64,000 nucleotides of DNA from positions 32,173 to 96,172 of the forward strand of contig CAYPCM010000001.1 in assembly GCA_964409225.1 (NCBI GenBank), in the 5' to 3' direction. The stretch comes from an uncultured Candidatus Saccharibacteria bacterium (lineage in GTDB: Bacteria; Patescibacteriota; Minisyncoccia; JACPXH01). Positions 7,221 through 57,877 of the stretch are shown in pieces. Position 1 is the first letter of the stretch. Every line of letters begins with the position of its first letter. The translations under genes and the position numbers were made by a program. The notes beneath the pieces were generated by a model, which was not told the origin of the DNA, did not search any database, and saw nothing but the letters and a program-made list of their open reading frames with translations.

Positions 7221-7408
7221 TATACCAGATAACCGTGGAGGGCATGGCTGTGATAGAATGGAGTCGGAGTGAGAAATACGAAATCCTAAACTCTAAATCC
7301 GAAACAAAACCCAATACTTAAATTCCAAATCCAAAACGCTTGGGTTTTTGAGATTTGTTGACTGGATATTGTTTAGGATTTCGATATTCGAATTTAGGAT
7401 TTTGTGCC

Positions 7409-8584
7409 ATGTGGCGTACGCTTGATGACTTAGACGTGACCGGCAAACGCGTGCTGTGGCGCGTTGATTTTAACGTGTCGATCGGCGAAAGCGGCCGTAT
7501 TGATCAGCAAAATGATTGGCGAATGCGCGCGGCACTCCCAACGCTTGAAACGCTTCTCAAGCACAAGGCGCGAGTAATCGCCGTCAGCCATTTGGGCGAG
7601 CCGGCCGAGCGCGACGCCAGGTTATCTTTGGCGCCGGTGGCAAGCCATTTATCAAAGCTTGCCGGTCAGCGGATTAGGTTTGTGTCGAGTGTCGTGGGGC
7701 CGGAAGCAGTGGCAGCGGCAGATAAGCTTGAGCCCGGCGAAATTATGATGCTTGAGAATGTTCGCTTCGAGCCCGGGGAAATAGTGAACGATCCAAAGCT
7801 TGCCGATCAACTGGCCGCGGGTGCGGAAATGTTTGTATGCGATGCTTTTGGTGTCGCGCATCGGCCGCACGCTTCCCTCGTCGGTCTGCCAGCGCGTCTG
7901 CCGTCGGCGGCCGGAGAGCTGATGTGTCGTGAGGTGAAAACACTCGCTGATTTTATGACGAGTCCGCCCCGGCCGGCAGTGGTCATTCTCGGAGGCGCAA
8001 AGGTCGGCACTAAACTGGCGGTGCTGGCGAGGATTATGGCTGTGGCGGACTATGTGCTTTTGGGAGGCGTGCTGGCCAACACGGTCCTTGCGGCCAAGAA
8101 CTTCAATGTGGGCGCTTCACCCGTTGATAAGACGGTTATTCCTGCCTTGCAGAAGCTGGATCTGGCTTCGTCTAAAATTCTTCTGCCGCAGGATGCGACC
8201 GTGGGGTTAGCGACTGATTCGCAGCAAGGGGTGAGACAAGTGGACGTGGCGCGTGTGAGAGCCGATGAAGCGATGTATGACTTGGGCGAGCGCACAATTG
8301 CCCTGTACCAAGAGGCAATCACCGGCGCGGCCAGCGTTGTTTGGAACGGACCCATGGGACTCGCAGAAGTTGATCCGTTTGCTACAGGTACCGTCGCTTT
8401 GGCAGAGGCAATCGCCGGCAGACGCATTCCCGCGATTGTGGGTGGCGGCGACACCGTGGCGTTTTTGATGCGTCGGGGTTTGGCGTCCTCGTTCTCCCAT
8501 ATTTCAACCGGCGGCGGGGCCATGCTCGCGTTTCTGGCAGGTGAGCGCTTGCCGGCTCTGGAGGCGTTGGGGTACTATAGTTAA
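7409..8584 (+). CDS. pgk: Phosphoglycerate kinase (start set at MWRTLDDL, 7409)
   Basis: RVDFNV, MLENVRFEPGE, VILGGAKV, GGGDT motifs throughout. Confidence 0.9.
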   Translation: MWRTLDDLDVTGKRVLWRVDFNVSIGESGRIDQQNDWRMRAALPTLETLLKHKARVIAVSHLGEPAERDARLSLAPVASHLSKLAGQRIRFVSSVVGPEAVAAADKLEPGEIMMLENVRFEPGEIVNDPKLADQLAAGAEMFVCDAFGVAHRPHASLVGLPARLPSAAGELMCREVKTLADFMTSPPRPAVVILGGAKVGTKLAVLARIMAVADYVLLGGVLANTVLAAKNFNVGASPVDKTVIPALQKLDLASSKILLPQDATVGLATDSQQGVRQVDVARVRADEAMYDLGERTIALYQEAITGAASVVWNGPMGLAEVDPFATGTVALAEAIAGRRIPAIVGGGDTVAFLMRRGLASSFSHISTGGGAMLAFLAGERLPALEALGYYS

Positions 8585-8743
8585 ATCAAATATCAAATAG
8601 CTAATCGTAAAAATTATCAATGATCAATTATCAATCAAACTCCAAACTCCAATTTTCAGTTGACGACGTAGCGTATTTGAAAACTGAGAAATTGAAAATT
8701 GAAAATTGAGAATTTAAGTTGTCATTTTTCATTTTCAGATATT

Positions 8744-9348: not shown

Positions 9349-9468
9349 CAGACCGTCCGAAAACTCCAAAATTTAGTCTTCGAGCTTGTCGAGAAGCCTA
9401 AATTTTGCCTTAAAACCGACGTATTGTTCTCGACAAGCTCGAACAATAACGAGTTTTCGGACGGTCTG
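9349..9468. repeat. Nested-palindrome MITE-like element, family A, copy 1
   Basis: 16–18-bp terminal inverted repeats CAGACCGTCCGAAAACTC…GAGTTTTCGGACGGTCTG; internal inverted CTTCGAGCTTGTCGAGAAG / CTTCTCGACAAGCTCGAAC; near-identical copies at 20199..20318 and 39749..39898. Confidence 0.75.
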
Positions 9469-9481
9469 TATTGCGTTTCGT

Positions 9482-12037: not shown

Positions 12038-13927
12038 TCAGTAGTTCGCGGCAGAGTACTCTCTGCCGGGCCATAGGAACAGGTTGTTCGTCGAAACGTT
12101 CTCGTTGCGGCTGGGGTCGTCGCTCGGCTCGATTGCGTCAATCTCGGCCGCGAACGCAACGATAACGTACCATTCGTCCCGGAAGAGGTTTGCCGGAAGC
12201 GTAAAGCTCGGCGTGGTTGAGGCCGGGCAATTGTATATTGCCCGGCGCGGCGCAAACCGCGTATAGACCCAACACCAGTATCGCGAAGCTCCCGGCACCG
12301 GCTCGAACCAGAAACGCGTCGGGGATACGCTGTCAATGTTGAGCCCTTGCGGGAGTGGGAGCTGGCGGGGTCGATCGAGCGAGTGCGACGCTCCCCGCAC
12401 CGTGCGGCCGTCGGTCGTCGTGACCGTGATGTCAAAGACCCCGGACTCGCCTCCGTAATCTTGTTCGAAGATGTAGCTGGCGTTGCTGTTCGGGAGACGC
12501 CAGTCGAGGTCGATTACGATTACTTCGCCGGTCCGGCGGCTCCGCGCTTCAACGCGCGAAACGTAGTCAGCGGCTGATCCGCGTTCATCTGAGACGATGA
12601 CCTCGATGTGGATTCGGTATCCCGATGTCCATGGCGATTCCCACCGGTAGGGGTTGTTGTAGGTCGAGACGAAGATGTTTTCAATCGCCGTGCGAGCGCT
12701 ATCCGGAGGGGCGATCTGAAAGGTTGTCTGGGCGAGGTTTGAGACGCGGGTGCCGTCGTAGGGACTCTGGGTGGGGCGCACGAGGAGCGCGTAGAAGGTA
12801 TACTCCCCATCGCTGCCGCGCCCGAGCGAATCGAAGCGGATGGGATACAGTTCCTCGCTGTCGAGGCGATGCGCCGCAGGCGTTGCTGTAATGGTCCATC
12901 CTGGCTCTCCAGATTCTATGGCGGTTTGGAATACGAACTGCCTGCTCGGGGTGAGGATGGCGGTGTAGAGGTCGGCAACGCGATTGCCCGAAGACGCCGA
13001 GAGTTTGATTCGAAGCGGTGAGCCGATGCGCGTCCTTGGTGTTTCTGTCTTGAGCACGAGCGCCACTGGCCGGCGAACCACCTCTGCGGTAATGGCGATT
13101 CGGACGTTATCGTCAGCCGTCTCGCACAGATGGTTGAATCGGTTGAGGGTGCACGCATTGAGTAGGTTGATGCGCACTTCCGCATGGAGCGGCACCCGCA
13201 GTTCGGCGCTCGCCAAGTTCTGGCTGCGTTCGTTCACCACGTCGTCGTTGCCCACGATGATGGAGCTGTAGGCAATCGGGGTGTCGCGGTAGCGGTAGAG
13301 GGCGTCGGTGTTGAGCTGGTTGAGTTCGAGGGAGTTCGGTTGCAGAATGCGTACGGCCGTGATTGCCCCCGAGAAACCAGCGACCGCGGCAATATTCGCA
13401 AAGTTAGACCCCAGGTGCGGGGTTCCCACCGTGATGATCTGGCTTACCTTGGGCGTGCGAGCGTAGCTTAAGTACGCCCGGCACGCGAGCCCGCCCATGC
13501 TGTGGCCGACGCAAATCGCCTTTGATTTGCCGGTAAGCTCGAGGATAAAGTTGATGACACCCTCGAGCTCTTCGCCTTGCTGCTGGTAGGTGAGATCTTT
13601 TCCGCTCGTGAACGAGACCGTGTAGATGTCGCCCGGTTTGATGCGGCCGCCAAAGCGGGCATCTGGGAAGTAGTAGATTTGCCCGTTGCGGTATCGAGCT
13701 TGGCCGCCGAAGGTCCAGCCTTGGCTCGTGACGGATGCGAGGAATTCGTCCCACGTGCTCGCGTCGCTGTTGAGTCCATGGACGAGGATAATCGGGTGCT
13801 CGGGCGGCGAAAGCGCCGCCGCCGCGCCAATCCAGCCGGCTACGAGCAGAGCTGCCAGAAAGCCGATACTGCGTTTCCAGCTGCGCGGTTGAGTTGTGAA
13901 AAGAGCTGCCCATTCCAGTCGTCTCAT
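12038..13927 (-). CDS. Secreted alpha/beta-hydrolase (lipase/esterase-like) with large C-terminal beta-rich extension
   Basis: N-terminal signal/TM (LAALLVAGWIGAAAA), nucleophile elbow GHSMGGL, ~630 aa. Confidence 0.6.
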   Translation of the reverse strand: MRRLEWAALFTTQPRSWKRSIGFLAALLVAGWIGAAAALSPPEHPIILVHGLNSDASTWDEFLASVTSQGWTFGGQARYRNGQIYYFPDARFGGRIKPGDIYTVSFTSGKDLTYQQQGEELEGVINFILELTGKSKAICVGHSMGGLACRAYLSYARTPKVSQIITVGTPHLGSNFANIAAVAGFSGAITAVRILQPNSLELNQLNTDALYRYRDTPIAYSSIIVGNDDVVNERSQNLASAELRVPLHAEVRINLLNACTLNRFNHLCETADDNVRIAITAEVVRRPVALVLKTETPRTRIGSPLRIKLSASSGNRVADLYTAILTPSRQFVFQTAIESGEPGWTITATPAAHRLDSEELYPIRFDSLGRGSDGEYTFYALLVRPTQSPYDGTRVSNLAQTTFQIAPPDSARTAIENIFVSTYNNPYRWESPWTSGYRIHIEVIVSDERGSAADYVSRVEARSRRTGEVIVIDLDWRLPNSNASYIFEQDYGGESGVFDITVTTTDGRTVRGASHSLDRPRQLPLPQGLNIDSVSPTRFWFEPVPGASRYWCWVYTRFAPRRAIYNCPASTTPSFTLPANLFRDEWYVIVAFAAEIDAIEPSDDPSRNENVSTNNLFLWPGREYSAANY

Positions 13928-32706: not shown

Positions 32707-33168
32707 ATGAAGCGTACGGACGCGCCCCAACTAATCATTCATGCCGATGGCGGCTCACGGGGCAACCCCGGGCCGGCGGCGTTGGGCGTGGTCATTGAGC
32801 CGGCGGCTGGTTCGGATCTTAAACCGGGTCGGAAAGAATACGCCGAATACTTAGGCGAGCTTACGAACAACGAAGCCGAATACCGCGCGCTTATTTTTGC
32901 CCTGAAAAAAGCCAAACAGCTTTATGGCAAAGACAAAATTGCCAAGGCGGCGGTGGAGGTGCGAATGGATTCTGAGCTGGTGGTCAAGCACCTCAACGCC
33001 GAATATAAAATTGAGGACGAAAAGCTCCAGCCGTTATTTCTTGAAGCGTGGAATCTGAGGCAGGATTTCGGTTCGGTGCGCCTTATCGCCGTCCCGCGTC
33101 AGAACAACCGCCGGGCGGATGCGTTGGTGAACCGCGTGCTCGACCAGCAGGGGAGTCGGCTGCTCTAG
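32707..33168 (+). CDS. rnhA: Ribonuclease HI
   Basis: IHADGGSRGNPGPAA…TNNEAEYRALI…DSELVV RNase H catalytic motifs. Confidence 0.85.
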   Translation: MKRTDAPQLIIHADGGSRGNPGPAALGVVIEPAAGSDLKPGRKEYAEYLGELTNNEAEYRALIFALKKAKQLYGKDKIAKAAVEVRMDSELVVKHLNAEYKIEDEKLQPLFLEAWNLRQDFGSVRLIAVPRQNNRRADALVNRVLDQQGSRLL

Positions 33169-33804: not shown

Positions 33805-34017
33805 ATATGGTTAAGGTTAGGGTTCATCAGCAAAGAGACGTTCCCGAACAGCACCTTCCGATCAGGAAAGAGGATAAACATTCTCGCATTGCCGCCTTGT
33901 TTCCTGCGGTGGGCGTGATGTTTTCTCCTCGCGATATCGAAGAAGTGGTATCAGAAATTCGGAGTAACGGACACGATGCAACCCTTGATCAGCGCGCGAG
34001 TAAACTTTTCTGAGCCA

Positions 34018-34046
34018 TTGACAAGCGAAAATAACCGCAGTATACT
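34018..34046 (+). promoter_or_regulatory. Sigma70-type promoter for rnpB (TTGACA-17-TATACT)
   Basis: TTGACA 34018..34023, 17-nt spacer, TATACT 34041..34046; predicted +1 ~34053 coincides with P1 5' strand. Confidence 0.55.
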
Positions 34047-34054
34047 TCCGATGC

Positions 34055-34963
34055 CAAGTGGATTGGATAGTCGCGCTCATTGAAATTTCAGTGGGTGAGG
34101 AAAGTCCGAACACCCCAGCCGATGCGCGGCATCGGAAATTCGAAGCTCGAATTTCGAATTTCGAAACAAATTCAAAATTCCAAATACAAATGTTCCAAAC
34201 GTTTGGAATTTGGGATATTGGGTATTGTGATTTGTTTCGAATTTCGAATTTCGGATTTCGTGCTTCCGCTGCTGCGCAGCGGCTGGAAGTAGGCAGTCGC
34301 TAACGGCGACCGGGAGCAGCTTGTTTCATCGGCGCGGTTCACGAATTGTTGCACGTAGCGCATTCGTGACTATGTGCGACATTGACTGCGTTTAAGGATA
34401 CGAGCGAAGCCCAGGGAAAGTGCCACAGAGACATATACCGCCTGCCGATGCTTCGCATCGGGAAACTCGAAATTCGAATTTCGAAACAAATTCAAAATTC
34501 CAAATACCAATGTTCCAAACGTTTGGAATTTGGGATATTGGGTATTGTGATTTGTTTCGGATTTCGTGCTTCGGATTTGGGATTTCCGCTGCGAAGCAGC
34601 GGTTGGTAAGGGTGAAAAGAGTGGGTTCGCCTTCGTTCCGCTTTCGCGGAACTTCGGCGGAATAAACCCGCCTTCATGCGCCAGCGCGCCGGAAGGTGTG
34701 GTGAACGTAAGAGCCCACAGTTCTCGCAGGTGACTGTGAGAAGAGGAAAACCCTGCCTGGTGCAAGGTCAGCGTTTCCTCGGCAGATTTCGTCTGCCGCG
34801 GGATTCGAAAAGTTAGACCGCTAGAGGCCGCGAGCAATCGCGGTCCCAGATAGATGGCTATCAGGGCGTGCGGCCTGTAAACCCCTCCCCAGTTTGCAAA
34901 ACAAACTGGGGAGGGGGAGGAAGGGCCGCACTCCTTACAGAATTCGGCTTATAGATCCACTTG
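34055..34963 (+). ncRNA. rnpB: RNase P RNA (bacterial type A core) carrying two ~165-nt inserted palindromic modules
   Basis: P1 pairing CAAGTGGAT/ATCCACTTG; P4 strands GAGGAAAGTCCGAAC and ACAGAATTCGGCTTATAG; conserved GGGAAAGTGCCACAGAGA, GGTAAGGGTGAAAAG, AACGTAAGAGCCCACAG, GGTGCAAGGTCAG, CCAGATAGATGGCTATCAGGG blocks matching E. coli M1 RNA; ~909 nt vs ~380 expected. Confidence 0.75.
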
Positions 34964-34975
34964 ACGCCAAAAATT

Positions 34976-34996
34976 CCGCCAGCCGGCGGTTTTTTT
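34976..34996 (+). terminator. Intrinsic terminator of rnpB
   Basis: CCGCC-agcc-GGCGG + TTTTTTT. Confidence 0.6.
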
Positions 34997-35047: not shown

Positions 35048-36475
35048 ATGAAGCGCATTCAACTCTTGTTTACGGCGCTTTTGGTCCCGCTCGATTATGT
35101 GGCCTTGCTATTGGCCGGCATAGCGGTTTACTCCTTGCGCACCGGCGAAGTCGGTCGGGCTGTCATTGGGCCGGTTTTGTTTGCGGCGCGCGTGCCTTTT
35201 GAGCGGTATTTTGCGCTGGTGGCCGGTGTGGCGGCTATTTGGCTTGCGGCGTTTGCATTCATCGGTCTTTATCGGTTTGAGACAACCAAAAAGCCGGTCG
35301 AAGAATTCACCAAAATTGTCATTGGCTCGACCGCCGGCATAATGACCGTCATTTTCTATATGTTCTTTCGTCAGGAAATTTTTGATTCGCGGTTTCTGGT
35401 GCTGGCGGGTTGGGTGGCGGGGATTTTAGCGGTGACGCTGGGTCGTTTTCTCATGCGCGCGATATCGCGGTCTTTGCTTATTCGTTACCAAATCGGCGCG
35501 CATAAAGTTTTGGTGATTGGCCGGGACGAAGTGTCGCGGGCGGTGGTGGCGGCCATACGCAGCGATCCAGAATCCGGTTATGTCATCGTCAAGCACTTGT
35601 TTGAGCCGAACATCGTCGCGGTGGCGGCGTCAGTTGGCAATCCCGGCGCGGACGAGATTATTTTGACCGATCCGGACTGGCCGAGGGAACGCATCATAGA
35701 ACTCATCGATTATGCGACTGATAAGCGCCTTGCCTTCAAGTTCGTGCCGAATCTGTTTCAAACGCTCACAGCCAATGTCGCCTTTGAAACAGTGGGCGGG
35801 GTGCCGCTCGTTGAGTTCAAGCGGTCTCGGCTTGACGGCTGGGGGCGAATCGCCAAAAGAAGCATCGACATATTCGGCGCTTTTGGCGGCTTCGTCGTGT
35901 TGGCGCCGGTAGCGGCGGTTATTGCGCTCGCAATCAAATTGGAATCGCCCGGCCCGGTCATTTATCGCAACCGTCGCGTGGGGCCTCGGGGCGAATTTGA
36001 AACGTTTAAGTTTCGCACGATGAAGCTTGAGTATTGCACCGATGAGCGTTATCCCAACTGGCGCCGGGCGCGCGAGTTTGAGGCGAAGCTCGTAGCCGAA
36101 CGCAGCCGTAGGCGCGGGCCGGTGTTCAAAATTATGGACGATCCGCGCCGCACCCGAGTTGGCCGTTTCCTTGAGCGCACCAGCTTAGATGAGCTGCCGC
36201 AGTTTGTGAACGTGTGGCGCGGGCACATGTCGCTGGTGGGACCGAGACCCCACATGCCTCGGGAGGTTGAGCGTTACGCGAGGCATCATCAGTTGGTGTT
36301 TAATGTAAAGCCCGGCATAACGGGTTTGGCGCAAACCTCGGGCCGTTCAGACCTCGATTTTGAAGACGAAATAAAACTCGATCTCTACTACATGGAGCAC
36401 TGGTCGCTCAAATTAGATTTTGCCATTTTGCTTAAGACGCCGTTTGTGATGTTTTTTAGGCGCCACCGGAACTAA
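35048..36475 (+). CDS. Polyprenyl-phosphate sugar phosphotransferase (WbaP/bacterial sugar transferase family)
   Basis: N-terminal TM block, C-terminal sugar-transferase domain (…KFRTM…, …PRPHMPREV…GITGLAQ…); start moved to 35048 clear of rnpB. Confidence 0.8.
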   Translation: MKRIQLLFTALLVPLDYVALLLAGIAVYSLRTGEVGRAVIGPVLFAARVPFERYFALVAGVAAIWLAAFAFIGLYRFETTKKPVEEFTKIVIGSTAGIMTVIFYMFFRQEIFDSRFLVLAGWVAGILAVTLGRFLMRAISRSLLIRYQIGAHKVLVIGRDEVSRAVVAAIRSDPESGYVIVKHLFEPNIVAVAASVGNPGADEIILTDPDWPRERIIELIDYATDKRLAFKFVPNLFQTLTANVAFETVGGVPLVEFKRSRLDGWGRIAKRSIDIFGAFGGFVVLAPVAAVIALAIKLESPGPVIYRNRRVGPRGEFETFKFRTMKLEYCTDERYPNWRRAREFEAKLVAERSRRRGPVFKIMDDPRRTRVGRFLERTSLDELPQFVNVWRGHMSLVGPRPHMPREVERYARHHQLVFNVKPGITGLAQTSGRSDLDFEDEIKLDLYYMEHWSLKLDFAILLKTPFVMFFRRHRN

Positions 36476-36518
36476 TATCAAAAATCAAAAAGCAAAGAGC
36501 AAAAATACAGATCAAAAA
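36474..36518. repeat. AT-rich inverted repeat, left arm, flanking four-helix-bundle gene
   Basis: AATATCAAAAATCAAAAAGCAAAGAGCAAAAATACAGATCAAAAA ~80% identical to reverse complement of 36916..36961. Confidence 0.4.
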
Positions 36519-36534
36519 TTCTAAAATACACAAC

Positions 36535-36909
36535 GTGGATAAGAGCGAGCAACGGCGGGCATTCAAAGTGAGGATGTATCGTTACATCTTGTGGTTGGTG
36601 AAGTTTCTGAGCGCGTTGCCGAATGCAACAGTCGTTCGAGAGATAGTGGGTCAATTGATGCGGAGCGGGACGAGCGTTGGCGCGAACTACTTTGAAGCAC
36701 AGAGCGCCAGTTCGAAGAGAGAGTACCAGAATTTCTTTCGTTACTCCCTCAAATCTGCTAACGAGTCGCTCTTTTGGCTTGCGGTGCTGCGAGACGGCGG
36801 TTTTGTGGCGGAGCGTTTACAGGCTGAATGCGCGTGGCTCTTACGGGAAACCAAAGAGTTTGCGAATATCTTTGCCGCAAGCATTCTCACCTTGAAGGGG
36901 AAGCGATAA
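36535..36909 (+). CDS. Four-helix-bundle protein (23S rRNA intervening-sequence protein family)
   Basis: …SGTSVGANYFEAQSASSKREYQNFFRYSLKSANESLFWL… matches the 'four helix bundle protein' family. Confidence 0.65.
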   Translation: MDKSEQRRAFKVRMYRYILWLVKFLSALPNATVVREIVGQLMRSGTSVGANYFEAQSASSKREYQNFFRYSLKSANESLFWLAVLRDGGFVAERLQAECAWLLRETKEFANIFAASILTLKGKR

Positions 36910-36915
36910 TCTTTC

Positions 36916-36961
36916 ATTTTTACCTTGTATTTTTGCTATTTGATTTTTTATTTTTGATATT
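36916..36961. repeat. AT-rich inverted repeat, right arm
   Basis: TTTTTACCTTGTATTTTTGCTATTTGATTTTTTATTTTTGATATT, reverse-complement-similar to 36474..36518. Confidence 0.4.
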
Positions 36962-40021: not shown

Positions 40022-41947
40022 ATGGCGTGGCCCGCGCGTTCTGAGCGCCGGCGGGAACTTAAATATTTTGTTGCGGCGGTGTTGGGCTTGGCTGCTGTGC
40101 TTATTGGTTTGGGGTTTGCTGGCCGGGTTATGGCGGTTAAAGCCGTGGTTGAGGCGCGGGTTTTGGTTGGCTTTAAGCGTCTGGCGGCAGCGGAGGAGAG
40201 TGTTGAGAATCGCGACCTCGCCGCCGCGCGAGACGACTTCCAAAAAGCGAGTGCTGAATTTCAGGGGGCGCGCGCGGCGCTTGGCTGGTCCGGGCGCACC
40301 GCGCTATTCGCCGCCCGGATTTGGCCATTGCCTTCAGCTGCGAAGAACGCCTCCCGGGTGCTTGAGGTGGGGGGGTCTTTAGCCGCAGCCGGCGTTGATC
40401 TTGCGACAGTGGCTGAGCGTTTTGTCGCCGGTGGCGCGCTTAAGTCGCTTTTGGGCGAAAACCAAGAAGACATTTTGGTTGAGTCCCGTGAAGCGCTCGA
40501 GCGGGCCACGCGAGCGCTCGACACAGCGCTTGCCTCCAGCGAGCGTATTTCGCCGGAACATCTGCCGGCTGAGGCGCGCGAGCGTTTCGCGGACTTGCGC
40601 CGGGTTATGCCGGTTGTCACTGCCGGCGTGCGCGCTGCCAAACAGGAGTTTGATCTGTGGGCGCCGATGCTTGGGTCAGACATGCCTCGCCGGTACTTGC
40701 TGGTTTTTCAGAATTCGAGCGAATTGCGCCCCACTGGCGGCTTTATCGGCTCATACGCTACCGTGGCGATTGATCAGGGGCGACTTAAAGAGTTTTTAGT
40801 CAACGGCATCTTCGATCCGGACGGCCAACTGGCGGTGAAAGTGGTGCCGCCCCGGCCGCTGCAGCTAATTTCGACCGCTTGGGCCACGCGCGACGCCAAC
40901 TGGTTTTTTGATTATCCGACATCCGCCAAAAAAATCGCCTGGTTTTTTGGCAAAACAGGAGAGCCCTCGGTCGATGGCGTAATTGCTTTTACTCCCGAAG
41001 CGCTCGTGCGTCTTTTGTCTTTGACCGGCCCAATTGCCATGCCGGCGTACGACGAAGTGGTCAGCGCGGAAAATTTTATTGAAGTGGCCCAGCGCGAGGT
41101 GGAGCTCGAGTACGATCCGGTGGTCAACCGCCCGAAGCAGTTTCTGGCGGATTTGGTGATTGAGTTGCTCGAACGGCTCAGGGCGCTGGACCCGCATGAG
41201 CTTGGTAAGATTATTTCTGTCACGGCCGACAGCTTGGCTCAAAAGGACATTCTCATATACCTTGCTGATCCCGAGCGCCAAGCCGAGGTGGCGCGTCGAG
41301 GTTTTGCCGGTGCGGTCACGGACACCAGCGGCGACTATTTGGCGGTTGTGCACACCAATATCAACGGCTACAAATCGGACTACGTCACTGACGACGAACT
41401 TGCGCATGAAACCGCAATTTGGCCGGACGGATCAACAATAAACACCGTGACGGTGAAACGCACCCATCGCGGCGGAAAGACGCCGCACTCTTTTTGGAAT
41501 CAGGTAAATGCCGAATGGCTGCGGGTGTATGCGCCTTTGGGCAGCGAACTCATTTCGGTCTCCGGCGTTACGCGTTTGGAGTCGCGTGAATCCATTGACT
41601 ACAGCCGCGCCGGTTTCCAGAATGACGCGGATGTTGTGGCCGAGGAGGCCAAGCAGCGCAAGGATCCGTTTTCCGGCAGCACTATTGGCGAAGAAGCGGG
41701 CAAGACCGTTTTTGGCAACTGGGTTTTCGTGAAGCCCGGAGAGACGGTTACGGTTTCGTACCGCTACCGTTTGCCGTTTACGCTTCAAAACGGCAGCGTC
41801 CACACTTTGGTTTGGCAAAAGCAACCGGGCACGAAGGCCCGCTTCAGCCACCGCCTGCAGGCGTCTGGTTGGCGCGTGGAAGGTGAGGCAGATGCAGGCG
41901 GAGTTCTGGATCGGGATTTTTTTACCGAAGTTAAGTTGTTTAGGTAG
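40022..41947 (+). CDS. DUF4012-like membrane-anchored protein (start set downstream of repeats; ORF could extend to 39332)
   Basis: N-terminal TM (FVAAVLGLAAVLIGLGF) then large conserved domain (…LVFQNSSELRPTGGFIGSYA…) as in DUF4012 proteins. Confidence 0.5.
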   Translation: MAWPARSERRRELKYFVAAVLGLAAVLIGLGFAGRVMAVKAVVEARVLVGFKRLAAAEESVENRDLAAARDDFQKASAEFQGARAALGWSGRTALFAARIWPLPSAAKNASRVLEVGGSLAAAGVDLATVAERFVAGGALKSLLGENQEDILVESREALERATRALDTALASSERISPEHLPAEARERFADLRRVMPVVTAGVRAAKQEFDLWAPMLGSDMPRRYLLVFQNSSELRPTGGFIGSYATVAIDQGRLKEFLVNGIFDPDGQLAVKVVPPRPLQLISTAWATRDANWFFDYPTSAKKIAWFFGKTGEPSVDGVIAFTPEALVRLLSLTGPIAMPAYDEVVSAENFIEVAQREVELEYDPVVNRPKQFLADLVIELLERLRALDPHELGKIISVTADSLAQKDILIYLADPERQAEVARRGFAGAVTDTSGDYLAVVHTNINGYKSDYVTDDELAHETAIWPDGSTINTVTVKRTHRGGKTPHSFWNQVNAEWLRVYAPLGSELISVSGVTRLESRESIDYSRAGFQNDADVVAEEAKQRKDPFSGSTIGEEAGKTVFGNWVFVKPGETVTVSYRYRLPFTLQNGSVHTLVWQKQPGTKARFSHRLQASGWRVEGEADAGGVLDRDFFTEVKLFR

Positions 41948-42158
41948 GAGTGTGTAAAATTATCAATGGCCAATGTTCAATCAATTTTCAATTATTCAAG
42001 TATCAAACACGTAATTGAAAATTGGACAATTGGATCATTGATTGAAAATTGAGAATTGTAAATTTAGGTTGCCTTTCCCATTTTGATGGTTCGACTCGGT
42101 TCACCATATATATCCTAAGCGAAGTCGAAGGATGATTTTTACATTTTTCATTAGTTCT

Positions 42159-53598: not shown

Positions 53599-54513
53599 GT
53601 GTATGATGGAAGTATGGCGAATAATGTGCAGTGTAAGGTATGCGGGCAATCGTTCGGCGCCGTTACGAACACTCACTTGGCGACGCACGACATCTCAGTT
53701 TCCGACTATCGGCGTCGCTACCCCGGTACGGCCGTCGGGTTTGCCTTGGTGCCGGCGCAGCTTGCGAAAGGCGATCTACGGTATCGCCGATGGCGCCGTT
53801 CGTTGCTGAAGCGGCCGCCACCTTGGAACAGAGGTCAGACAAAAGCGACGCACCCGGGTGTTGCAAGAATATCGGCTACGTTTCGGGAACGAGGCATTGA
53901 TAACTTTGTTCATTGGCGACAAAAGATGGAGGCACGGGGGCGGTTTCATCATAGCTATCCAGATTTTCCACATACAGGAGATTTGGCCGAACTGATCGGT
54001 CTTGTTCTCGGCGACGGGCACATCTGTCGATTCGCGCGCACGGAGAGTCTCGGCATAACGCTTAATAATAAGTATCAAGCCCTGATCGAACGAACCGCAA
54101 AGCTGATACAGCGCGTTTTCCATAAAAAGCCGGCTCGACTAGTGCGCCGCGATGCAAACTGTACGAGGCTGGTGCTGTATCAGAAAGACATCAGCCGCCG
54201 TTTGGGCATTCCGAATGGTAATCGAAGCCAGGCCGATAATGGTATACCGCAGTGGGTATGGCGCCACAAGCCGTTTTTGATTCGCTGCTTGCGGGGACTC
54301 TACGAAGCCGAGGGGTTTTTCTCGCAACATCTACCGACCTATACATATAAATTTTCTTTCACCAACTCAAACCCGCGCTTGCTCAACGACGTTTTCCGCG
54401 GTATAAGTACACTTGGCTTTGCGCCGCATCGGGAAGCCAGGCGCATCACAATTTCGAAGCGGGCACAGGCGTTTGCGTGTCGTACCCTCCTTCGTTTTCG
54501 CGAATACAACTAA
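53599..54513 (+). CDS. Free-standing LAGLIDADG homing-endonuclease-like protein with N-terminal C2H2 zinc finger
   Basis: CKVCGQSFGAVTNTHLATH (C-x2-C-x12-H-x3-H); LAGLIDADG motif 1 LAELIGLVLGDGH and motif 2 LRGLYEAEGFF. Confidence 0.65.
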   Translation: MYDGSMANNVQCKVCGQSFGAVTNTHLATHDISVSDYRRRYPGTAVGFALVPAQLAKGDLRYRRWRRSLLKRPPPWNRGQTKATHPGVARISATFRERGIDNFVHWRQKMEARGRFHHSYPDFPHTGDLAELIGLVLGDGHICRFARTESLGITLNNKYQALIERTAKLIQRVFHKKPARLVRRDANCTRLVLYQKDISRRLGIPNGNRSQADNGIPQWVWRHKPFLIRCLRGLYEAEGFFSQHLPTYTYKFSFTNSNPRLLNDVFRGISTLGFAPHREARRITISKRAQAFACRTLLRFREYN

Positions 54514-54518
54514 TCAAT

Positions 54519-54592
54519 TGGGAGGTCTGCTAATGGTAGGCATCATGGCTCTGAACCATGCAATGGAGGTTCGACTCCTCCCCTCCCAGCCA
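54519..54592 (+). tRNA. tRNA-Gln (anticodon CTG), CCA encoded
   Basis: Acceptor TGGGAGG/CCTCCCA (U1:A72 typical of tRNA-Gln), D-arm TGCT…GGCA, anticodon stem CATGG/CCATG loop CTCTGAA, T-arm GGAGG-TTCGACT-CCTCC, GCCA tail. Confidence 0.8.
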
Positions 54593-54657
54593 ATTTGTAA
54601 AGTTTGCGTTTTCCGCCTCGCTCGGGGCTTCGCTTGATGATTTAATGAAATAAAATT

Positions 54658-55662
54658 ATGGGAACAAAGCAATCATTATATAAAGCACACAAGATTAAGG
54701 ACGATGAGTTCTTTACTCTTTACGAGGATGTTGCTAACGAAGTTTCGCTTTATAAGAAACAACTGAAAAGGAAAAGAATTATATGTCCCTGCGATTGGGA
54801 TGAAAGTTATAACGAAGAGATTGTTTTCAAGGAAGAAGGATTTATTGGTCCGTCCAATTTATTGGACAAAGGCGGAACAATTAAAAAAATAGATATAAAA
54901 GCGTCTAAGAAAAAAATTGAAAAACCGCTAGCTTTGATTAAGTGTAATTTTGTTAAATTTTTAGTTGCTCATGCTGATGCTTATGGCATAAAGTCAATTT
55001 CTGTGAGCGGATATAATCCTGCAAACGGTAAAGGTGTTAAATTCCAAGATGTTGATTATTCAAAATATGATCTAGTTATTACGAATCCGCCGTTTAGTCA
55101 GTTTCGGGATTTCATTGAAACAATGTTTAAAAATAAGACGGATTTTTTGGTCGTCGGACCAATTACTGCCATAACATACAAGGAAATTTTCAGTCACATA
55201 AAAGACAATAAAATGTGGCTTGGTTACGCAAAACAATTATCCGGATTTCGATTGACTGATGGTACTCTTGTTCTTTCAAAAAATCCCGAAGGATCAGTGC
55301 CTCGTGCTTGTAAATGGTACACGAATTTGGATGTTGCCTATCGGCACGACAGGATGATTTTGACAGAAAACTATAGCCCCGAAAAATACCCAAAATATTA
55401 CAACTATAACGGCGTGGATGTAGAAAAAACAAATAAAATACCTTTTGATTTCGATGGTATTATGGGTGTTCCAGTTACTTTTTTAACAAAGTATAATCCA
55501 CAGCAGTTTAAGATTGTAGGAAAAGGGGTTCAGGTTGAAAAAACAGTAAGGTTCAAGGGTGATAAGGCTACGCTCTGGATTGAAAAGGACGGAAAACCTT
55601 TCAGGGCACCTTTTGAAAGAATTTTAATAAAAAATAGAGAGGTAATTAAAAATGAAAAATAA
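54658..55662 (+). CDS. Adenine-specific DNA methyltransferase, M.EcoRI-like family
   Basis: DDEFFTLYEDV…CPCDWDES, DLVITNPPF, ITYKEIFSHIKDNKMWLGY, CKWYTNLDV, YPKYYNYNGVDVEKTNKIPFDFDGIMGVPVTFLTKYNPQQF — collinear with my recollection of M.EcoRI; ~33% GC. Confidence 0.6.
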   Translation: MGTKQSLYKAHKIKDDEFFTLYEDVANEVSLYKKQLKRKRIICPCDWDESYNEEIVFKEEGFIGPSNLLDKGGTIKKIDIKASKKKIEKPLALIKCNFVKFLVAHADAYGIKSISVSGYNPANGKGVKFQDVDYSKYDLVITNPPFSQFRDFIETMFKNKTDFLVVGPITAITYKEIFSHIKDNKMWLGYAKQLSGFRLTDGTLVLSKNPEGSVPRACKWYTNLDVAYRHDRMILTENYSPEKYPKYYNYNGVDVEKTNKIPFDFDGIMGVPVTFLTKYNPQQFKIVGKGVQVEKTVRFKGDKATLWIEKDGKPFRAPFERILIKNREVIKNEK

Positions 55663-56737
55663 TATGAATATCAAAACTTTATACGAACAACTTAGGGATG
55701 GGAAAATTATCAGCGACATAGAACTCCAAAGAGAGATAGTTTATGATACCGAAAAACAAATGCTAGTTATAGACAGTATCGTTAATGGGATTCCGTTGCC
55801 TGCTTTTTATTTTTGGAAAAATGACGAAGGAATTTTGGAAGTATTGGACGGCAAACAAAGAATAGAAGCCATTAAAAAATTTATTGAAAACGACATCCAA
55901 TATCAGGATAAGTTATGGAAACAAACGGACAAAAAAATTCAAGACATAATCAATAATGCCGAGCTTTCAATCATTGTTTGTGGAGGTAAAGAACAATTAA
56001 AAAGGGAGATATTTAGAAGAATTAATACTCTGGGTGTTCCACTTTCTCCTTATGAAGTTTTGAACGGCCTTTTTCATGGCGAGTATTTAAGGGGTTTAAC
56101 TGTTTATGTCGGGCAAGATAGGGATGCACTGAAAGTTCTAAACGCCAACAGCCGAGGTAAAAATCAATATAGAATTTTGCAATTATTGATGGAATTGAAA
56201 AATTTGCCGAAAGATGCGCAGAGTATAAACGACCATGTGAATTCAAATCAGAAAAAATCTTTTGCTGATGACCAAAGGGAGGTTGGTAAATATATCAAAT
56301 TCGTCAGAGACATATTTGATGATTACGGCCAATTAGACATTTATTTTAACTTGGCGAGAAAATATTTTAAGGACGCGGTTATATGGAAACAAAACAAGGA
56401 CGAAATCAATTCTCGCGTCAAAAGATATTTAAAAAGCGATGACGCTAAATTGACGGATAAAGCAAAAGAAATAGAAGATATTATTCAAGCCATTGTAAAT
56501 AATATCAGTGTTGATGATAAAAGGTTATTTTCAAGCGATGACAAAAAGGAATTTTTGAGGAAAAAGAAGCCGAATAAAGAGAAAAAATATCAATGTGCGG
56601 ACTGCAAAAAGTATTTTTATGCCGAGGAATTAACAATGGATCATGTAGACCCGTGGAGTAAAGGCGGCAGAACCGAACTTTCAAACGCTGAACTACGATG
56701 CCGTCCTTGCAATATTAAAAAGGGCAATAGAAGTTAG
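55652..56737 (+). CDS. DUF262 (ParB/Srx-like, DGQQR-type) domain fused to C-terminal HNH nuclease
   Basis: N-terminal …LEVLDGKQRIEAI… (DUF262 DGQQR motif variant); C-terminal CADCKKY…MDHVDPWSKGG…N…CRPCNIKKGN HNH Cys4/His-Me finger; 11-nt overlap with upstream MTase gene. Confidence 0.6.
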   Translation: MKNNMNIKTLYEQLRDGKIISDIELQREIVYDTEKQMLVIDSIVNGIPLPAFYFWKNDEGILEVLDGKQRIEAIKKFIENDIQYQDKLWKQTDKKIQDIINNAELSIIVCGGKEQLKREIFRRINTLGVPLSPYEVLNGLFHGEYLRGLTVYVGQDRDALKVLNANSRGKNQYRILQLLMELKNLPKDAQSINDHVNSNQKKSFADDQREVGKYIKFVRDIFDDYGQLDIYFNLARKYFKDAVIWKQNKDEINSRVKRYLKSDDAKLTDKAKEIEDIIQAIVNNISVDDKRLFSSDDKKEFLRKKKPNKEKKYQCADCKKYFYAEELTMDHVDPWSKGGRTELSNAELRCRPCNIKKGNRS

Positions 56738-56740
56738 ATT

Positions 56741-57877
56741 ATGAATTCTAAAATTATTATCAAGGCCAATTTACCTTTTTGTTTATATAGATTAGATGAA
56801 AGATATTTTCAAATTGACCCTCAAACACGCATCCGTTTTTTAAAAGAAAAAATAGAGCCAAGCAGAAGGACAAGCTCATCAAAAAATGTTGAGTTTTTAA
56901 ATGATAGATGGGGCTGGGATGGTTTTTCTAAAGTAGAAATTGAAACAGAAAAAGAAATTGATTTAGAAAATTCAACATCGGAAAAAGCACAAAAATTTGC
57001 TATAAAAATCATTAACGAGTTCATCAATCTTTATAGATATTTTGATGAAAATGCTGTCCACTTTGTTAAACTTATAGAATCTGATTTATTAGAATTTTCT
57101 GTGGAGAAAAATGGTCATGGGATGTTTGCGATGCCGTTGCACATGACAGTTTTAGACCCTAAGAAAATTTCAGCAGTAAGTAGTAGCATAGAGAGGGCGT
57201 TAAGTGATGAATACAAAATCCCCTTATGGAGAGAACTTATACTTAATGCCGAACATTACTGTTATATCGGAGATTTTAGAATGGCAATTTTGGAAAGCGT
57301 GACTGCATTGGAATTAGTAATTTCTAGATTTATAAGTGGTGAGTTATCAGCGGCCGGTGTTCAAGAAAAAGAAATTAAAGAGTTTATTAAGGAAACTGGC
57401 GTAGCAAAGGGGCTTAATGTTGTGATTCGGCTTTTAGTAGGAAAAAGTGGAATACCGAATGAATTATTTGAAAAATGCAAAGGTACTATAACTAAACGAA
57501 ACAAGATAGTTCATGAGGGAAGAAAAGAAATAGATTATCAAAGCACTAAAGATTCCATTATCGCCATATATCAGCTTATTCAGCTTTTATTGGAAAAGGG
57601 TCGAGATATGGATGAATTAAGAGATAATTATAGACAAATTATGAAATTTGAAGAATACTTAAAAACTGTTGTACCGAAGATTGGTCCAAATGCCGCTTTT
57701 GACCTTTCAAGAGATGCACGCACAACGGCAATCGAAAACATCTTGGTGGATAAAAAAGTAGCAACAAAAGAAGAAATTGAAACTGCAGTTGAAAACGAGT
57801 TATCAAAAAGCGCCGAGAATATTTTGCGTATGCCACCCTTGCCAAAGGATGAACCTAAGGAAGCTCCGCAAAAATGA
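56741..57877 (+). CDS. Alpha-helical protein with HEPN-like Rx4H motif (putative abortive-infection/RNase component)
   Basis: …TITKRNKIVHEGRKE… (R-x4-H) in predicted helical context; 3 nt after upstream stop; AT-rich like the other two genes. Confidence 0.3.
   Translation: MNSKIIIKANLPFCLYRLDERYFQIDPQTRIRFLKEKIEPSRRTSSSKNVEFLNDRWGWDGFSKVEIETEKEIDLENSTSEKAQKFAIKIINEFINLYRYFDENAVHFVKLIESDLLEFSVEKNGHGMFAMPLHMTVLDPKKISAVSSSIERALSDEYKIPLWRELILNAEHYCYIGDFRMAILESVTALELVISRFISGELSAAGVQEKEIKEFIKETGVAKGLNVVIRLLVGKSGIPNELFEKCKGTITKRNKIVHEGRKEIDYQSTKDSIIAIYQLIQLLLEKGRDMDELRDNYRQIMKFEEYLKTVVPKIGPNAAFDLSRDARTTAIENILVDKKVATKEEIETAVENELSKSAENILRMPPLPKDEPKEAPQK

What the first reader, a model, noticed from the sequence alone, without database searches (positions are those of the whole stretch)
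34055..34963. RNase P RNA roughly 2.4x normal length because of two inserted copies of a ~165-nt AT-rich palindromic module
All universally conserved type-A blocks are present in the right order: P1, GGAAAGUCCG P4 5' strand, ACAGARA, GGUAAGGGUGAAA, UAAGAGC, GCAAGG, and the ACAGAAyyCGGCUUA P4 3' strand. Two near-identical modules sit after P4 and after P9. Module 1 is ~34117..34290 and module 2 is ~34442..34606. Each is [CCGATGC-NNN-GCATCGG hairpin][TTCGAA repeats][~100-nt AT hairpin centred on the 16-bp palindrome TTCCAAACGTTTGGAA][CCGCTGC-NNN-GCAGCGG hairpin]. A perfect sigma70 promoter (TTGACA-17-TATACT) and an intrinsic terminator bracket the 909-nt unit, so it is probably transcribed as one RNA. 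Insertions of this size and self-similarity are not a known feature of bacterial rnpB. They could be expansion segments, IVS-like elements that get excised, or parasitic MITEs tolerated in a structural RNA.
Basis: seen in the sequence. Interest (0 to 1): 0.8.

Follow-up and report, generated by a model that had tools for sequence, protein, structure and literature searches.

The report
Repeat-element insertions enlarge RNase P RNA
This is a real RNase P RNA gene from an uncultured Parcubacteria (CPR) bacterium that reaches ~910 nt, partly because two copies of a dispersed palindromic repeat landed in it; relatives carry the same repeat at the classic excised-insert (IVS) sites of 23S rRNA, so this essential ribozyme may be cut into three pieces in the cell.

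Summary
Window 34055-34967 is a type-A RNase P RNA gene with a strong promoter and a terminator. It carries two ~160-nt, 91%-identical AT-rich palindromic modules.

Rfam misses the gene at its curated threshold (69 bits against 100). A syntenic sister genome (L023) has the same promoter and a ~90% identical core. That core scores 148 bits, is 607 nt long and lacks both modules. More distant syntenic relatives have ordinary 340-425-nt genes.

The modules are therefore recent insertions and account for about 300 of the ~530 extra nucleotides. The rest comes from lineage expansions of P9 and P13 and a P19-like helix.

Module 1 replaces the tip of a hairpin between P5 and P7. Module 2 extends P12, not a site "after P9".

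The module belongs to a dispersed Patescibacteria family:
- one more clear copy lies in this window (7260-7416);
- copies sit between genes on other contigs;
- copies sit inside 23S rRNA genes, including the helix-25 and helix-45 IVS sites.

Copies in stable RNAs have GC clamps and fold better on the RNA-sense strand.

Best reading: a selfish IVS-type hairpin element tolerated at peripheral helix tips. It is probably excised by RNase III (about 55%) and otherwise retained. This is a new variant of known kinds.

The parts
34018..34046 (+). Sigma-70-type promoter, TTGACA-17-TATACT
   Evidence: 11 of 12 consensus positions. It is 100% conserved in the syntenic relative L023.
34055..34967 (+). Complete RNase P RNA gene (type A), about 910 nt
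   Evidence: RF00010 gives 69.1 bits, E = 1e-20. It is orthologous to L023 5314-5920, which scores 148 bits. Twenty compensatory pairs separate it from L023.
34055..34114 (+). P1/P2 5' strands (34055-34072), P3 (34073-34097), CR-I/P4 5' strand (34097-34111), P5 5' strand CACC (34111-34114)
   Evidence: Model alignment of L023 transferred through A2. This stretch is nearly identical in both genomes.
34115..34286 (+). Helix between P5 and P7 (the position of type-B P5.1). Its base is CCAGCC/GGCTGG. Its tip has been replaced by module 1.
   Evidence: L023 and L026 have a short hairpin here (CCCGCC-22 nt-GGCGGG). The base pair A-U in the window corresponds to C-G in L023, a compensatory change.
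34119..34282 (+). Module 1: left GC clamp 34119-34135, heptad-periodic AU-rich arms 34136-34265 (tip palindrome 34193-34208), right GC clamp 34266-34282
   Evidence: Family model R1 scores 157 bits. Absent from L023.
34291..34437 (+). P7 5' strand and P8 (34291-34310), expanded P9 (34311-34413, 103 nt), P10/P11 5' strands (34414-34424), J11/12 (34425-34437)
   Evidence: The P9 expansion is shared with L023 and shows compensatory changes.
34438..34611 (+). P12: base CCGCC / GGTAAGG, with module 2 forming the distal part
   Evidence: The stretch between J11/12 and J12/13 is 176 nt here and 38-55 nt in relatives.
34445..34602 (+). Module 2: left clamp 34445-34461 (matches the sole P12 hairpin of L023 at 16 of 17 positions), arms 34462-34585 (tip 34513-34528), right clamp 34586-34602
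   Evidence: R1 scores 146 bits. An independent Logan contig (L002) begins inside the right arm and runs into the 3' part of rnpB.
34612..34862 (+). J12/13; P13 with an ~87-nt insert (34621-34718); P14 (34721-34742); 3' strands of P11, P10, P7 and P5 (34743-34762); P15-P17 region; P18 (34826-34846); P2 3' strand (34856-34862)
34863..34936 (+). P19-like helix with a perfect 15-bp hairpin at its tip (34882-34916)
   Evidence: The helix is shared with L023, but the tip sequence differs.
34937..34963 (+). CR-V/P4 3' strand ACAGAATTCGGCTTA (34937-34951) and P1 3' strand (34955-34963)
34976..34996 (+). Intrinsic terminator: CCGCC-AGCC-GGCGG followed by T7
7260..7416 (.). Third copy of the same element family in this genome. 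It lies between genes, just upstream of the pgk start codon (7409), and has no GC clamps.
   Evidence: R1 scores 103 bits, E = 1e-17. Sequence. Arm similarity to module 1 is reached by 0.3% or fewer of shuffles. pgk identified.

Best explanation
The locus is the functional type-A RNase P RNA gene of a Candidatus Parcubacteria (Patescibacteria/CPR) bacterium.

Its lineage already had an enlarged RNA of ~607 nt. The enlargement comes from a hairpin between P5 and P7, a 100-nt P9, an insert in P13 and a P19-like helix. This genome then acquired two copies of a ~160-nt palindromic element. One copy replaced the tip of the P5/P7 hairpin. The other extended P12.

The element belongs to a dispersed family in Patescibacteria. 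Family members lie between genes and inside 23S rRNA genes, including the classical helix-25 and helix-45 IVS sites.

How it works:
- Shown: each copy folds on its own into a long AU-rich hairpin. In stable-RNA copies a GC-rich clamp closes the base.
- Inferred: because it folds as it is transcribed and projects from a peripheral helix tip, it does not disturb the catalytic core.
- Inferred, about 55%: RNase III then cuts the long double-stranded arms, as it does for 23S IVSs, without religation. That would leave a three-piece RNase P RNA held together by the clamps and by P1, P2, P4, P5, P7, P10, P11 and the P12 base.

I read the element as selfish or neutral rather than useful to RNase P.
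For: Identity of the gene
- RF00010 gives E = 1e-20.
- RNase H - rnpB - sugar-transferase synteny is conserved in seven relatives.
- The promoter is identical and the core ~90% identical to L023, which scores 148 bits.
- Twenty compensatory pairs and no broken pairs separate the window core from L023.

The modules are recent insertions
- Both are absent from L023, L026 and five further orthologues of 340-425 nt.

The element family is dispersed
- The 20-mer from the hairpin tip found 14 metagenome contigs and one Patescibacteria MAG.
- blastn and family model R1 detect full copies in 12 of these loci and a third copy at window 7260-7416.

Link to IVSs
- Copies lie inside 23S genes in L007, L010, L011 and L012.
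- One copy sits exactly at the helix-25 hairpin and another at about E. coli position 1169, in helix 45.
- Short ORF-less insertions at these sites in CPR 23S genes are already presumed to be RNase III IVSs (PMC11270868).
- CPR bacteria retain rnc (PMC12641178).

Selection at the RNA level
- In 6 of 7 stable-RNA copies the sense strand folds 6-24 kcal/mol better than the antisense strand, through G.U pairs. Intergenic copies show no such bias.
- The loops of the left and right clamps are complementary in all 7 stable-RNA copies (read).

Hairpin covariation
- 92.6% of cells are paired, and 0 of 500 shuffles reach the observed covariation.

The pieces would stay together
- Each clamp duplex beats two separate hairpins, by 14.2 kcal/mol at site 1 and 12.1 kcal/mol at site 2.
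- The three-piece complex is 32 kcal/mol more stable than the separated pieces.

A reason to remove the modules
- In the intact RNA the two modules can pair with each other. That fold is the MFE at -442.0 kcal/mol, against -437.3 when each module folds locally.
Against: - There are no transcript data, so excision is inferred by analogy only.
- The nearest rnpB precedent, heptamer STRR repeats in cyanobacterial rnpB, is to my knowledge retained in the mature RNA.
- The arms have a 1x1 mismatch every 5-9 bp and are AU-rich. That could limit RNase III cleavage.
- The presence of rnc in this particular MAG was not checked. It was not among the 28 window ORFs scanned.
- No target-site duplication and no transposase were found, so the way the element moves is unknown.
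- Only 64 kb of the genome could be searched for further copies.
- The gene falls below Rfam's curated threshold as it stands.
Confidence: 0.55

Rival explanations
1. The insertions are the same, but they are retained. The two hairpins stay in the mature RNA as inert ~75-bp helical extensions of P12 and the P5/P7 hairpin, giving a continuous ~900-nt RNase P RNA.
For: - P12 length varies widely among these relatives (38-55 nt against 176 nt).
- CPR RNase P RNAs with large helix extensions are reported (PMC8172020).
- Cyanobacterial rnpB carries dispersed heptamer repeats (Vioque 1997, reference confirmed; that they are retained is my own recollection).
- With each module folded locally, the core folds exactly as in the module-deleted RNA.
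- Periodic mismatches in the arms may blunt RNase III cleavage.
Against: - Family members occupy the 23S helix-25 and helix-45 sites, where characterised inserts are excised (PMC11270868).
- dsRNA this long is a canonical RNase III substrate, and CPR bacteria keep rnc.
- Two mutually complementary modules in one RNA invite a 160-bp mispairing that is slightly more stable than the native fold.
Confidence: 0.35
2. The modules are adaptive expansion segments. They were recruited for a function in RNase P, for example binding a protein or stabilising the fold, rather than being selfish insertions.
For: - The hairpin is maintained on the RNA-sense strand.
- The GC clamps are specific to stable-RNA copies.
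- Both modules have the same orientation as the gene.
Against: - They are absent from the sister species and from six other orthologues.
- Near-identical family members lie between unrelated genes and in 23S rRNA. The sequence is therefore not tailored to RNase P.
- Selection on the sense strand is equally expected if the hairpin only has to be harmless.
Confidence: 0.05
3. The arrangement is an assembly artefact or a decaying pseudogene. Either repeats misled the assembler, or the gene was disrupted by insertions and replaced by another copy elsewhere.
For: - The sequence comes from a metagenome-assembled genome.
- Independent Logan contigs break at or near the repeats.
- The two modules share more than 100 nt of near-identical sequence.
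Against: - All four junctions join module sequence to rnpB-specific sequence in the correct helix order.
- The base of the site-1 helix carries a compensatory change specific to this allele.
- Logan contig L002 independently joins the right arm of module 2 to the 3' part of rnpB.
- The promoter and terminator are intact.
- There are 20 compensatory and no disruptive substitutions relative to L023.
- Synteny is conserved.
Confidence: 0.05

Closest known systems
Bacterial 23S rRNA intervening sequences (IVSs) in helices 25 and 45, excised by RNase III without religation (Salmonella, Leptospira, Coxiella and others; presumed also for short ORF-less inserts in CPR 23S genes, PMC11270868)
   Same: - An extended stem-loop of about 100-200 nt replaces the tip of a native peripheral helix of an essential structural RNA.
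- Distribution among close relatives is sporadic.
- Members of this same element family sit at the helix-25 and helix-45 sites of Patescibacteria 23S genes.
- A GC-rich stem at the base could hold the fragments together.
   Different: - The host RNA here is RNase P RNA, not 23S rRNA.
- There are two copies in one RNA.
- One copy lies at the junction between the catalytic and specificity domains.
- The family also occurs between protein-coding genes.
- Excision has not been shown.
STRR heptamer repeats within rnpB of heterocyst-forming cyanobacteria (Vioque 1997, NAR 25:3471; title confirmed, details from my own knowledge)
   Same: - A repeat that is dispersed in the genome and has 7-nt periodicity lies inside rnpB and lengthens helix P12.
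- The gene remains functional.
   Different: - The element here is a discrete palindrome with a conserved tip and GC clamps, not a plain tandem array.
- A second copy lies outside P12.
- The family also occupies rRNA IVS sites.
- The host phylum is different.
Diverged CPR RNase P RNAs (Lui, Nielsen and Arkin 2021, PMC8172020)
   Same: - The genes fall below Rfam thresholds, need manual refolding and can have 'large extensions of helices'.
- The phylum is the same.
   Different: That study does not attribute extensions to a dispersed repeat or IVS-type element. It describes nothing near 900 nt or with duplicated modules, as far as the text I read shows.
MITE / REP-type dispersed palindromic repeats of bacteria
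   Same: - The element is short, has no ORF and has terminal inverted repeats.
- Several copies occur per genome, mostly between genes, with subfamilies.
   Different: - No target-site duplication: the insertion replaces a helix tip.
- No cognate transposase was found in the part of the window scanned.
- Copies in stable RNAs show strand-specific selection on RNA structure.
Helix P5.1 of type-B (Bacillus-type) RNase P RNA
   Same: A helix emerges between P5 and P7, where this lineage has a hairpin and this genome has module 1.
   Different: - The rest of the RNA is type A, with P13, P14 and P18 present.
- No homology to type-B P5.1 was tested or is claimed.

Membership tests
Bacterial RNase P RNA, class A (Rfam RF00010) | Recognition by the covariance model at the curated gathering score (100 bits) | tested here: inconclusive
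   - No hit at gathering.
- The permissive scan gives 69.1 bits, E = 1e-20, with the 5' third misaligned around the insertions.
- The syntenic orthologue without modules scores 148.1 bits. More distant orthologues score 200-232 bits.
- The tool cannot scan an edited sequence with the modules removed.
Bacterial RNase P RNA, class A (Rfam RF00010) | CR-I and CR-V present and complementary, so that they form P4; P1-P3 close the molecule | tested here: met
   - GGAAAGTCCGAA (34099-34110) pairs with TTCGGCTT (within 34937-34951).
- P1: 34055-34063 pairs with 34955-34963.
- P1, P2 and P3 are recovered in unconstrained folds and in the L023 model alignment.
Bacterial RNase P RNA, class A (Rfam RF00010) | Specificity-domain core (J11/12 ACAGARA, J12/13 GGUAAGGGUGAAA) and the type-A helices P13, P14 and P18 | tested here: met
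   - The blocks lie at 34425-34431 and 34605-34617.
- P13, P14 and P18 are aligned by the model.
- Compensatory changes relative to L023 occur in P14, P15 and P18.
23S-type intervening sequence (IVS) | An extended stem-loop replaces the tip of a native helix in a stable RNA and is sporadically present among close relatives | tested here: met
   - Module 1 replaces 22 nt of hairpin tip.
- Module 2 extends the P12 hairpin.
- Both are absent in L023 and the other orthologues.
23S-type intervening sequence (IVS) | Located in 23S rRNA (helices 9, 25 or 45) | tested here: not met
   The window copies are in rnpB. Other members of the same family do lie in 23S rRNA at helix 25 and helix 45. The window copies therefore resemble an IVS in how they are built, without being 23S IVSs in the strict sense.
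23S-type intervening sequence (IVS) | Excised from the primary transcript by RNase III without religation, leaving a fragmented RNA | not testable with these tools
   There are no transcript data. Indirect support only:
- the dsRNA arms are long;
- rnc is retained in CPR bacteria;
- the fragments would stay associated.
MITE / REP-like dispersed palindromic repeat | Multiple dispersed, ORF-less copies with terminal inverted repeats | tested here: met
   - Three copies lie in this 64-kb window: 34119-34282, 34445-34602 and 7260-7416.
- Copies occur on 12 other loci, eight of them between genes.
- 92.6% of cells are paired across the family.
MITE / REP-like dispersed palindromic repeat | Target-site duplication flanking the insertion | tested here: not met
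   Comparing filled and empty sites (window against L023) shows the helix tip replaced, with no duplicated flank.
MITE / REP-like dispersed palindromic repeat | A cognate transposase (for example Y1/RAYT or DDE) encoded in the genome | not tested
   Only 28 of about 56 window ORFs were scanned and none is a transposase. The rest of the genome is not available.
STRR-type heptamer repeat insertion in rnpB (cyanobacteria) | Genome-dispersed 7-nt-periodic repeats lengthening P12 of a functional rnpB | tested here: met
   - The arms are tandem AAATYCN / NGRATTT heptads.
- Module 2 lies in P12.
- Module 1 is not in P12, so the match is partial.
- The sequences are unrelated to the STRR consensus sequences, which I know only from memory.

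The most novel reading that the evidence does not exclude
RNase P RNA in this bacterium is a naturally fragmented ribozyme. RNase III removes two IVS-type hairpins from a ~910-nt precursor. The enzyme then works as three non-covalently joined RNA pieces of about 70-90, 150-210 and 370-390 nt, held together by GC clamps and native helices. It would follow that one mobile hairpin family colonises any highly structured stable RNA (23S rRNA, pre-rRNA spacers, rnpB), because the cell's rRNA-processing machinery cleans it out.
Probability: 0.45. Interest if true: 0.8.

Novelty: new variant of a known kind. Interest (0 to 1): 0.6.

Why it matters
**Scientific significance**
- RNase P RNA is a universal, essential ribozyme, and bacterial versions are normally 330-450 nt. 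Here it has been colonised twice by the kind of element known from 23S rRNA IVS sites.
- That links three phenomena usually treated separately: rRNA IVSs, dispersed palindromic repeats, and the oversized stable RNAs of CPR bacteria.
- If the hairpins are excised, this would be, to my knowledge, the first natural split bacterial RNase P RNA. It would show that IVS tolerance is a general property of stable RNAs with peripheral helices.

**Practical consequences**
- Standard annotation misses this essential gene (no Rfam hit at gathering). That affects completeness checks of CPR genomes.
- The filled-site / empty-site pair (window and L023) and family model R1 give a direct way to find more cases.

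Tried and rejected
- **Rfam at gathering threshold.** No rnpB hit. The permissive hit misplaces P1-P4, so I took the helix map from the module-free orthologue instead.
- **First genome-collection scan.** The 22-mer ending in GGG found nothing. That ending is specific to the window copies and L013. The 20-mer later found only one representative genome, so the source MAG is evidently not in that collection.
- **microRNA-precursor hits over the modules.** All are far below their gathering scores and simply reflect long hairpins. Rejected.
- **Viral contigs, phage records and plasmid records.** Only the 32-nt tip matches in two viral contigs. There are no blastn hits elsewhere. L006, L015 and L018 are likewise tip-only matches.
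- **Are the ORF-less modules derived from the nearby IVP-gene element with inverted-repeat arms?** Arm similarity is not significant (shuffle fractions 0.06 and 0.27). Not claimed.
- **The palindromes at 8599 and 41936.** They score weakly with R1. By sequence they form a second family, related to each other but not to the module.
- **A closer strain.** A 109.8-kb contig is hinted at, but it could not be retrieved.
- **Logan contigs upstream of rnpB.** They stop at about 34022, where the window and L023 sequences become identical. They therefore give no independent check of the module 1 junctions.
- **Vioque 1997.** The full text is not held.
- **Target-site duplication.** None was found.
Full report
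**1. What is in the sequence**

Window 34055-34967 contains every conserved block of a bacterial type-A RNase P RNA, in the correct order (coordinates).
- CAAGTGGAT (34055-34063) pairs with ATCCACTTG (34955-34963) to form P1.
- GGAAAGTCCG lies at 34099-34108 and ACAGAGA at 34425-34431.
- GGTAAGGGTGAAA lies at 34605-34617, TAAGAGC at 34708-34714 and GCAAGG at 34762-34767.
- ACAGAATTCGGCTTA lies at 34937-34951.

A promoter (TTGACA, 17 nt, TATACT; 11 of 12 consensus positions) ends at 34046. A terminator (GC hairpin plus T7) lies at 34976-34996.

Two modules form a 145-nt direct repeat 320 nt apart and are 91% identical over ~175 nt. Each folds as one long hairpin far more stable than shuffled sequence (-89.6 kcal/mol, z = -10.7; -73.6 kcal/mol, z = -7.0).

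**2. The covariance-model test**

Rfam finds no RNase P RNA in the window at gathering thresholds. A permissive scan of the region gives RF00010 at 34331-34967 with 69.1 bits (gathering score 100), E = 1e-20. That alignment treats module 2 and two other stretches as insertions. It also deletes the P4 5' strand, because the true 5' end lies beyond module 1. By itself this is suggestive, not decisive.

**3. Source and orthologues**

The window comes from NCBI MAG GCA_016186535.1, contig JACPLK010000001.1, labelled Candidatus Parcubacteria bacterium.

The downstream sugar transferase (35048-36475) has a 75%-identical homologue in another Parcubacteria MAG. That locus, L023, is syntenic: RNase H, MazE, PemK, a gap, then the transferase.

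Aligning the two gaps shows:
- an identical promoter;
- a ~90% identical RNA core;
- clean absence of both modules in L023.

L023's rnpB is 607 nt and scores 148.1 bits. An Azambacteria orthologue is 418 nt and scores 213 bits. Five more distant relatives keep the RNase H - rnpB - transferase order. Their genes are 340-425 nt, score 200-232 bits and contain no module.

Between the window core and L023, 20 predicted pairs changed on both sides while staying paired. None is broken apart from indels. The window gene is therefore a live, structurally constrained rnpB, and the modules are recent insertions.

They add about 300 nt. The other ~230 extra nucleotides relative to E. coli's 377 nt are shared with L023:
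- a hairpin between P5 and P7;
- a 103-nt P9;
- an insert in P13;
- a P19-like helix.

**4. Where the modules sit**

I transferred the model alignment of L023 through the pairwise alignment.

Module 1 (34119-34282) replaces the 22-nt tip of a hairpin that emerges between the P5 5' strand (CACC, 34111-34114) and P7 (AGGCA, 34291-34295). This is the position occupied by P5.1 in type-B RNAs. The base of the hairpin shows a compensatory change: CCAGCC/GGCTGG in the window against CCCGCC/GGCGGG in L023.

Module 2 (34445-34602) is the distal part of P12.

One odd point concerns the clamps. L023's P12 is closed by a single hairpin, CCGATGC-TTT-GCATCGG. It matches the left clamp of module 2 at 16 of 17 positions, and module 1 carries the same clamp stems. 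There are two possible histories:
- L023 keeps a 'solo clamp' left after the arms were lost;
- or the element captured the P12 hairpin before copying itself to site 1.

I could not decide between these.

**5. The module is a member of a dispersed family**

A 20-mer from the hairpin tip finds 14 metagenome contigs and one Patescibacteria MAG. blastn shows 75-84% identity over 100-155 nt in 11 of the metagenome contigs.

Fifteen copies align into a clear family. Its features are:
- 7-nt-periodic arms (AAATYCN / NGRATTT);
- invariant TAAACAA...TTGTTTAG blocks;
- a conserved tip.

Pairing across the family is 92.6%. There are 24 double-change cells against 7.3 expected, and 0 of 500 shuffles reach the observed covariation.

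A covariance model built from this alignment (R1) finds a third clear copy in the window at 7260-7416 (103 bits). It lies between genes, just upstream of pgk.

Two weaker hits, at 8599-8748 and 41936-42085, belong to a second heptad-periodic palindrome family.

Elsewhere, eight copies lie in short gaps between long open reading frames.

**6. Link to rRNA intervening sequences**

Four of the metagenome loci are 23S rRNA genes, and the copies lie inside them in the same orientation as the rRNA.

Mapping L010 to E. coli 23S and reading the sequence places its copies as follows:
- one exactly where the helix-25 hairpin lies;
- one at about position 1169, in helix 45;
- one near position 275;
- one inside a large insertion downstream of helix 25;
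- one in the spacer upstream of the 23S 5' end.

Helices 25 and 45 are the classical IVS sites. Tsurumaki et al. report many short ORF-less insertions at these sites in CPR 23S genes and presume they are RNase III IVSs (PMC11270868). CPR bacteria retain rnc (PMC12641178).

**7. Signs of selection at the RNA level**

In six of the seven copies inside stable-RNA genes, the sense strand folds 6-24 kcal/mol better than the antisense strand. The difference comes from G.U pairs that would be A.C mismatches on the other strand. The exception, L010a, lies in the pre-23S spacer. Intergenic copies show no consistent bias.

All seven stable-RNA copies carry GC-rich clamps (CCGNNGC-NNN-GCNNCGG) at both ends. 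The loops of the left and right clamps are complementary to each other, often through G.U pairs. Intergenic copies mostly lack clamps.

**8. Consequences for the RNA**

With each module folded on itself, the core folds exactly as in a module-deleted version.

The two modules are also complementary to each other. The unconstrained optimum of the full transcript pairs module 1 with module 2 (111 pairs; -442.0 kcal/mol against -437.3 for the local fold). Correct folding therefore depends on folding during transcription, or on removal of the modules.

If the AU arms were removed:
- each clamp pair would prefer an intermolecular duplex over separate hairpins, by 14.2 kcal/mol at site 1 and 12.1 kcal/mol at site 2;
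- the three-piece complex would be 32 kcal/mol more stable than the separated pieces.

**9. Interpretation**

Shown:
- this is a functional rnpB;
- it carries two recent insertions;
- the inserts belong to a dispersed Patescibacteria palindromic family that also occupies 23S IVS sites;
- copies in stable RNAs are under sense-strand structural constraint.

Inferred:
- the element is selfish or neutral, and is tolerated because it folds on its own and sits on peripheral helices;
- RNase III probably excises it, giving a three-piece RNase P RNA (about 55%). The main alternative is retention as inert helical extensions (about 35%).

An adaptive expansion, or an artefact or pseudogene, is unlikely (about 5% each).

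**10. Comparison with what is known**

- CPR RNase P RNAs that evade Rfam and carry large helix extensions are already reported (PMC8172020).
- Dispersed heptamer repeats inside cyanobacterial rnpB are known (Vioque 1997; reference confirmed, full text not held).
- 23S IVSs are classical.
- Searches for rnpB together with IVS or RNase III, and for RNase P RNA together with Patescibacteria, returned nothing.

What appears to be new:
- one element family is shared between 23S IVS sites, intergenic DNA and rnpB;
- two copies lie in a single RNase P RNA;
- one of them lies at the junction between the catalytic and specificity domains.

I rate this a new variant of known kinds, with interest 0.6.

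Noticed in passing
window 36474-36961: The PF05635 '23S rRNA intervening sequence protein' gene (36535-36909) is bracketed by 46-nt AT-rich, roughly heptad-periodic inverted repeats that are 85% complementary (36474-36519 / 36916-36961). The whole ~480-nt unit is absent from the syntenic relative L023, where the transferase stop is followed directly by the next gene. It looks like an ORF-bearing IVS-type element sitting between protein-coding genes. Its arms are not significantly similar to the rnpB modules.
   Followed up: partly
window 8599-8748 and 41936-42085: A second family of AT-rich palindromes with 7-nt-periodic arms (ATCAATN / TTGAAAA). They lie in gaps after gene ends: pgk / response regulator, and DUF4012 / MurJ. 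They are related to each other but not, by sequence, to the rnpB module.
   Followed up: partly
L010 12470-13300 (metagenome contig ORJL010289377.1): A 23S rRNA gene carries at least four module copies. It also has an ~800-nt insertion downstream of helix 25 that contains a tRNA-Gly(GCC) gene (13026-13100) and two further T-arm-like motifs. The insertion ends in a module copy. This suggests a 23S gene split by a tRNA-bearing spacer.
   Followed up: partly
L011 893-1125, L012 1775-2007, L007: These are overlapping contigs of another Patescibacteria 23S gene. It carries a group I intron as well as a module copy in domain III (about E. coli position 1480). L007 has additional weaker module-like hits, one near helix 25.
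   Followed up: no
window 34055-34967: In the thermodynamic optimum of the full transcript, module 1 pairs with module 2 along ~160 nt, enclosing P7-P11 as a loop. This fold is 4.7 kcal/mol more stable than the fold with both modules local.
   Followed up: yes
window 54519-57877: A low-GC island (36-40% against ~56%) lies directly after a tRNA gene (54519-54589). It encodes an EcoRI-like adenine methyltransferase, a GmrSD/HNH endonuclease and an ORF with no Pfam match. A LAGLIDADG-like ORF lies just upstream at 53599-54513.
   Followed up: partly
window 9386-33168: In five relatives, RecJ, RNase H, rnpB and the transferase are contiguous. Here RecJ (9386-11236) is separated from RNase H (32707-33168) by ~21 kb, much of it at higher GC (58-62%). 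That stretch holds CsgG-like, AbiEii and large surface-protein genes. Two toxin-antitoxin pairs also flank RNase H: PhdYeFM/ParE upstream, and MazE/PemK between RNase H and rnpB.
   Followed up: no
window 34882-34916: A perfect 15-bp hairpin (CCCCTCCCCAGTTTG-CAAAA-CAAACTGGGGAGGGG) tips the P19-like helix. L023 has a different, imperfect tip at the same place. This may be another replaced helix tip.
   Followed up: no
window 33807-34013, 34058-34303, 34370-34837: Open reading frames overlap or abut the RNA gene. The deposited annotation calls a 68-aa ORF just upstream, and mechanical ORFs of 81 and 155 aa lie inside rnpB. No RNA gene fills the ~1-kb gap in the gene calls, so the essential rnpB appears not to have been called in the gene set held for this MAG.
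   Followed up: no
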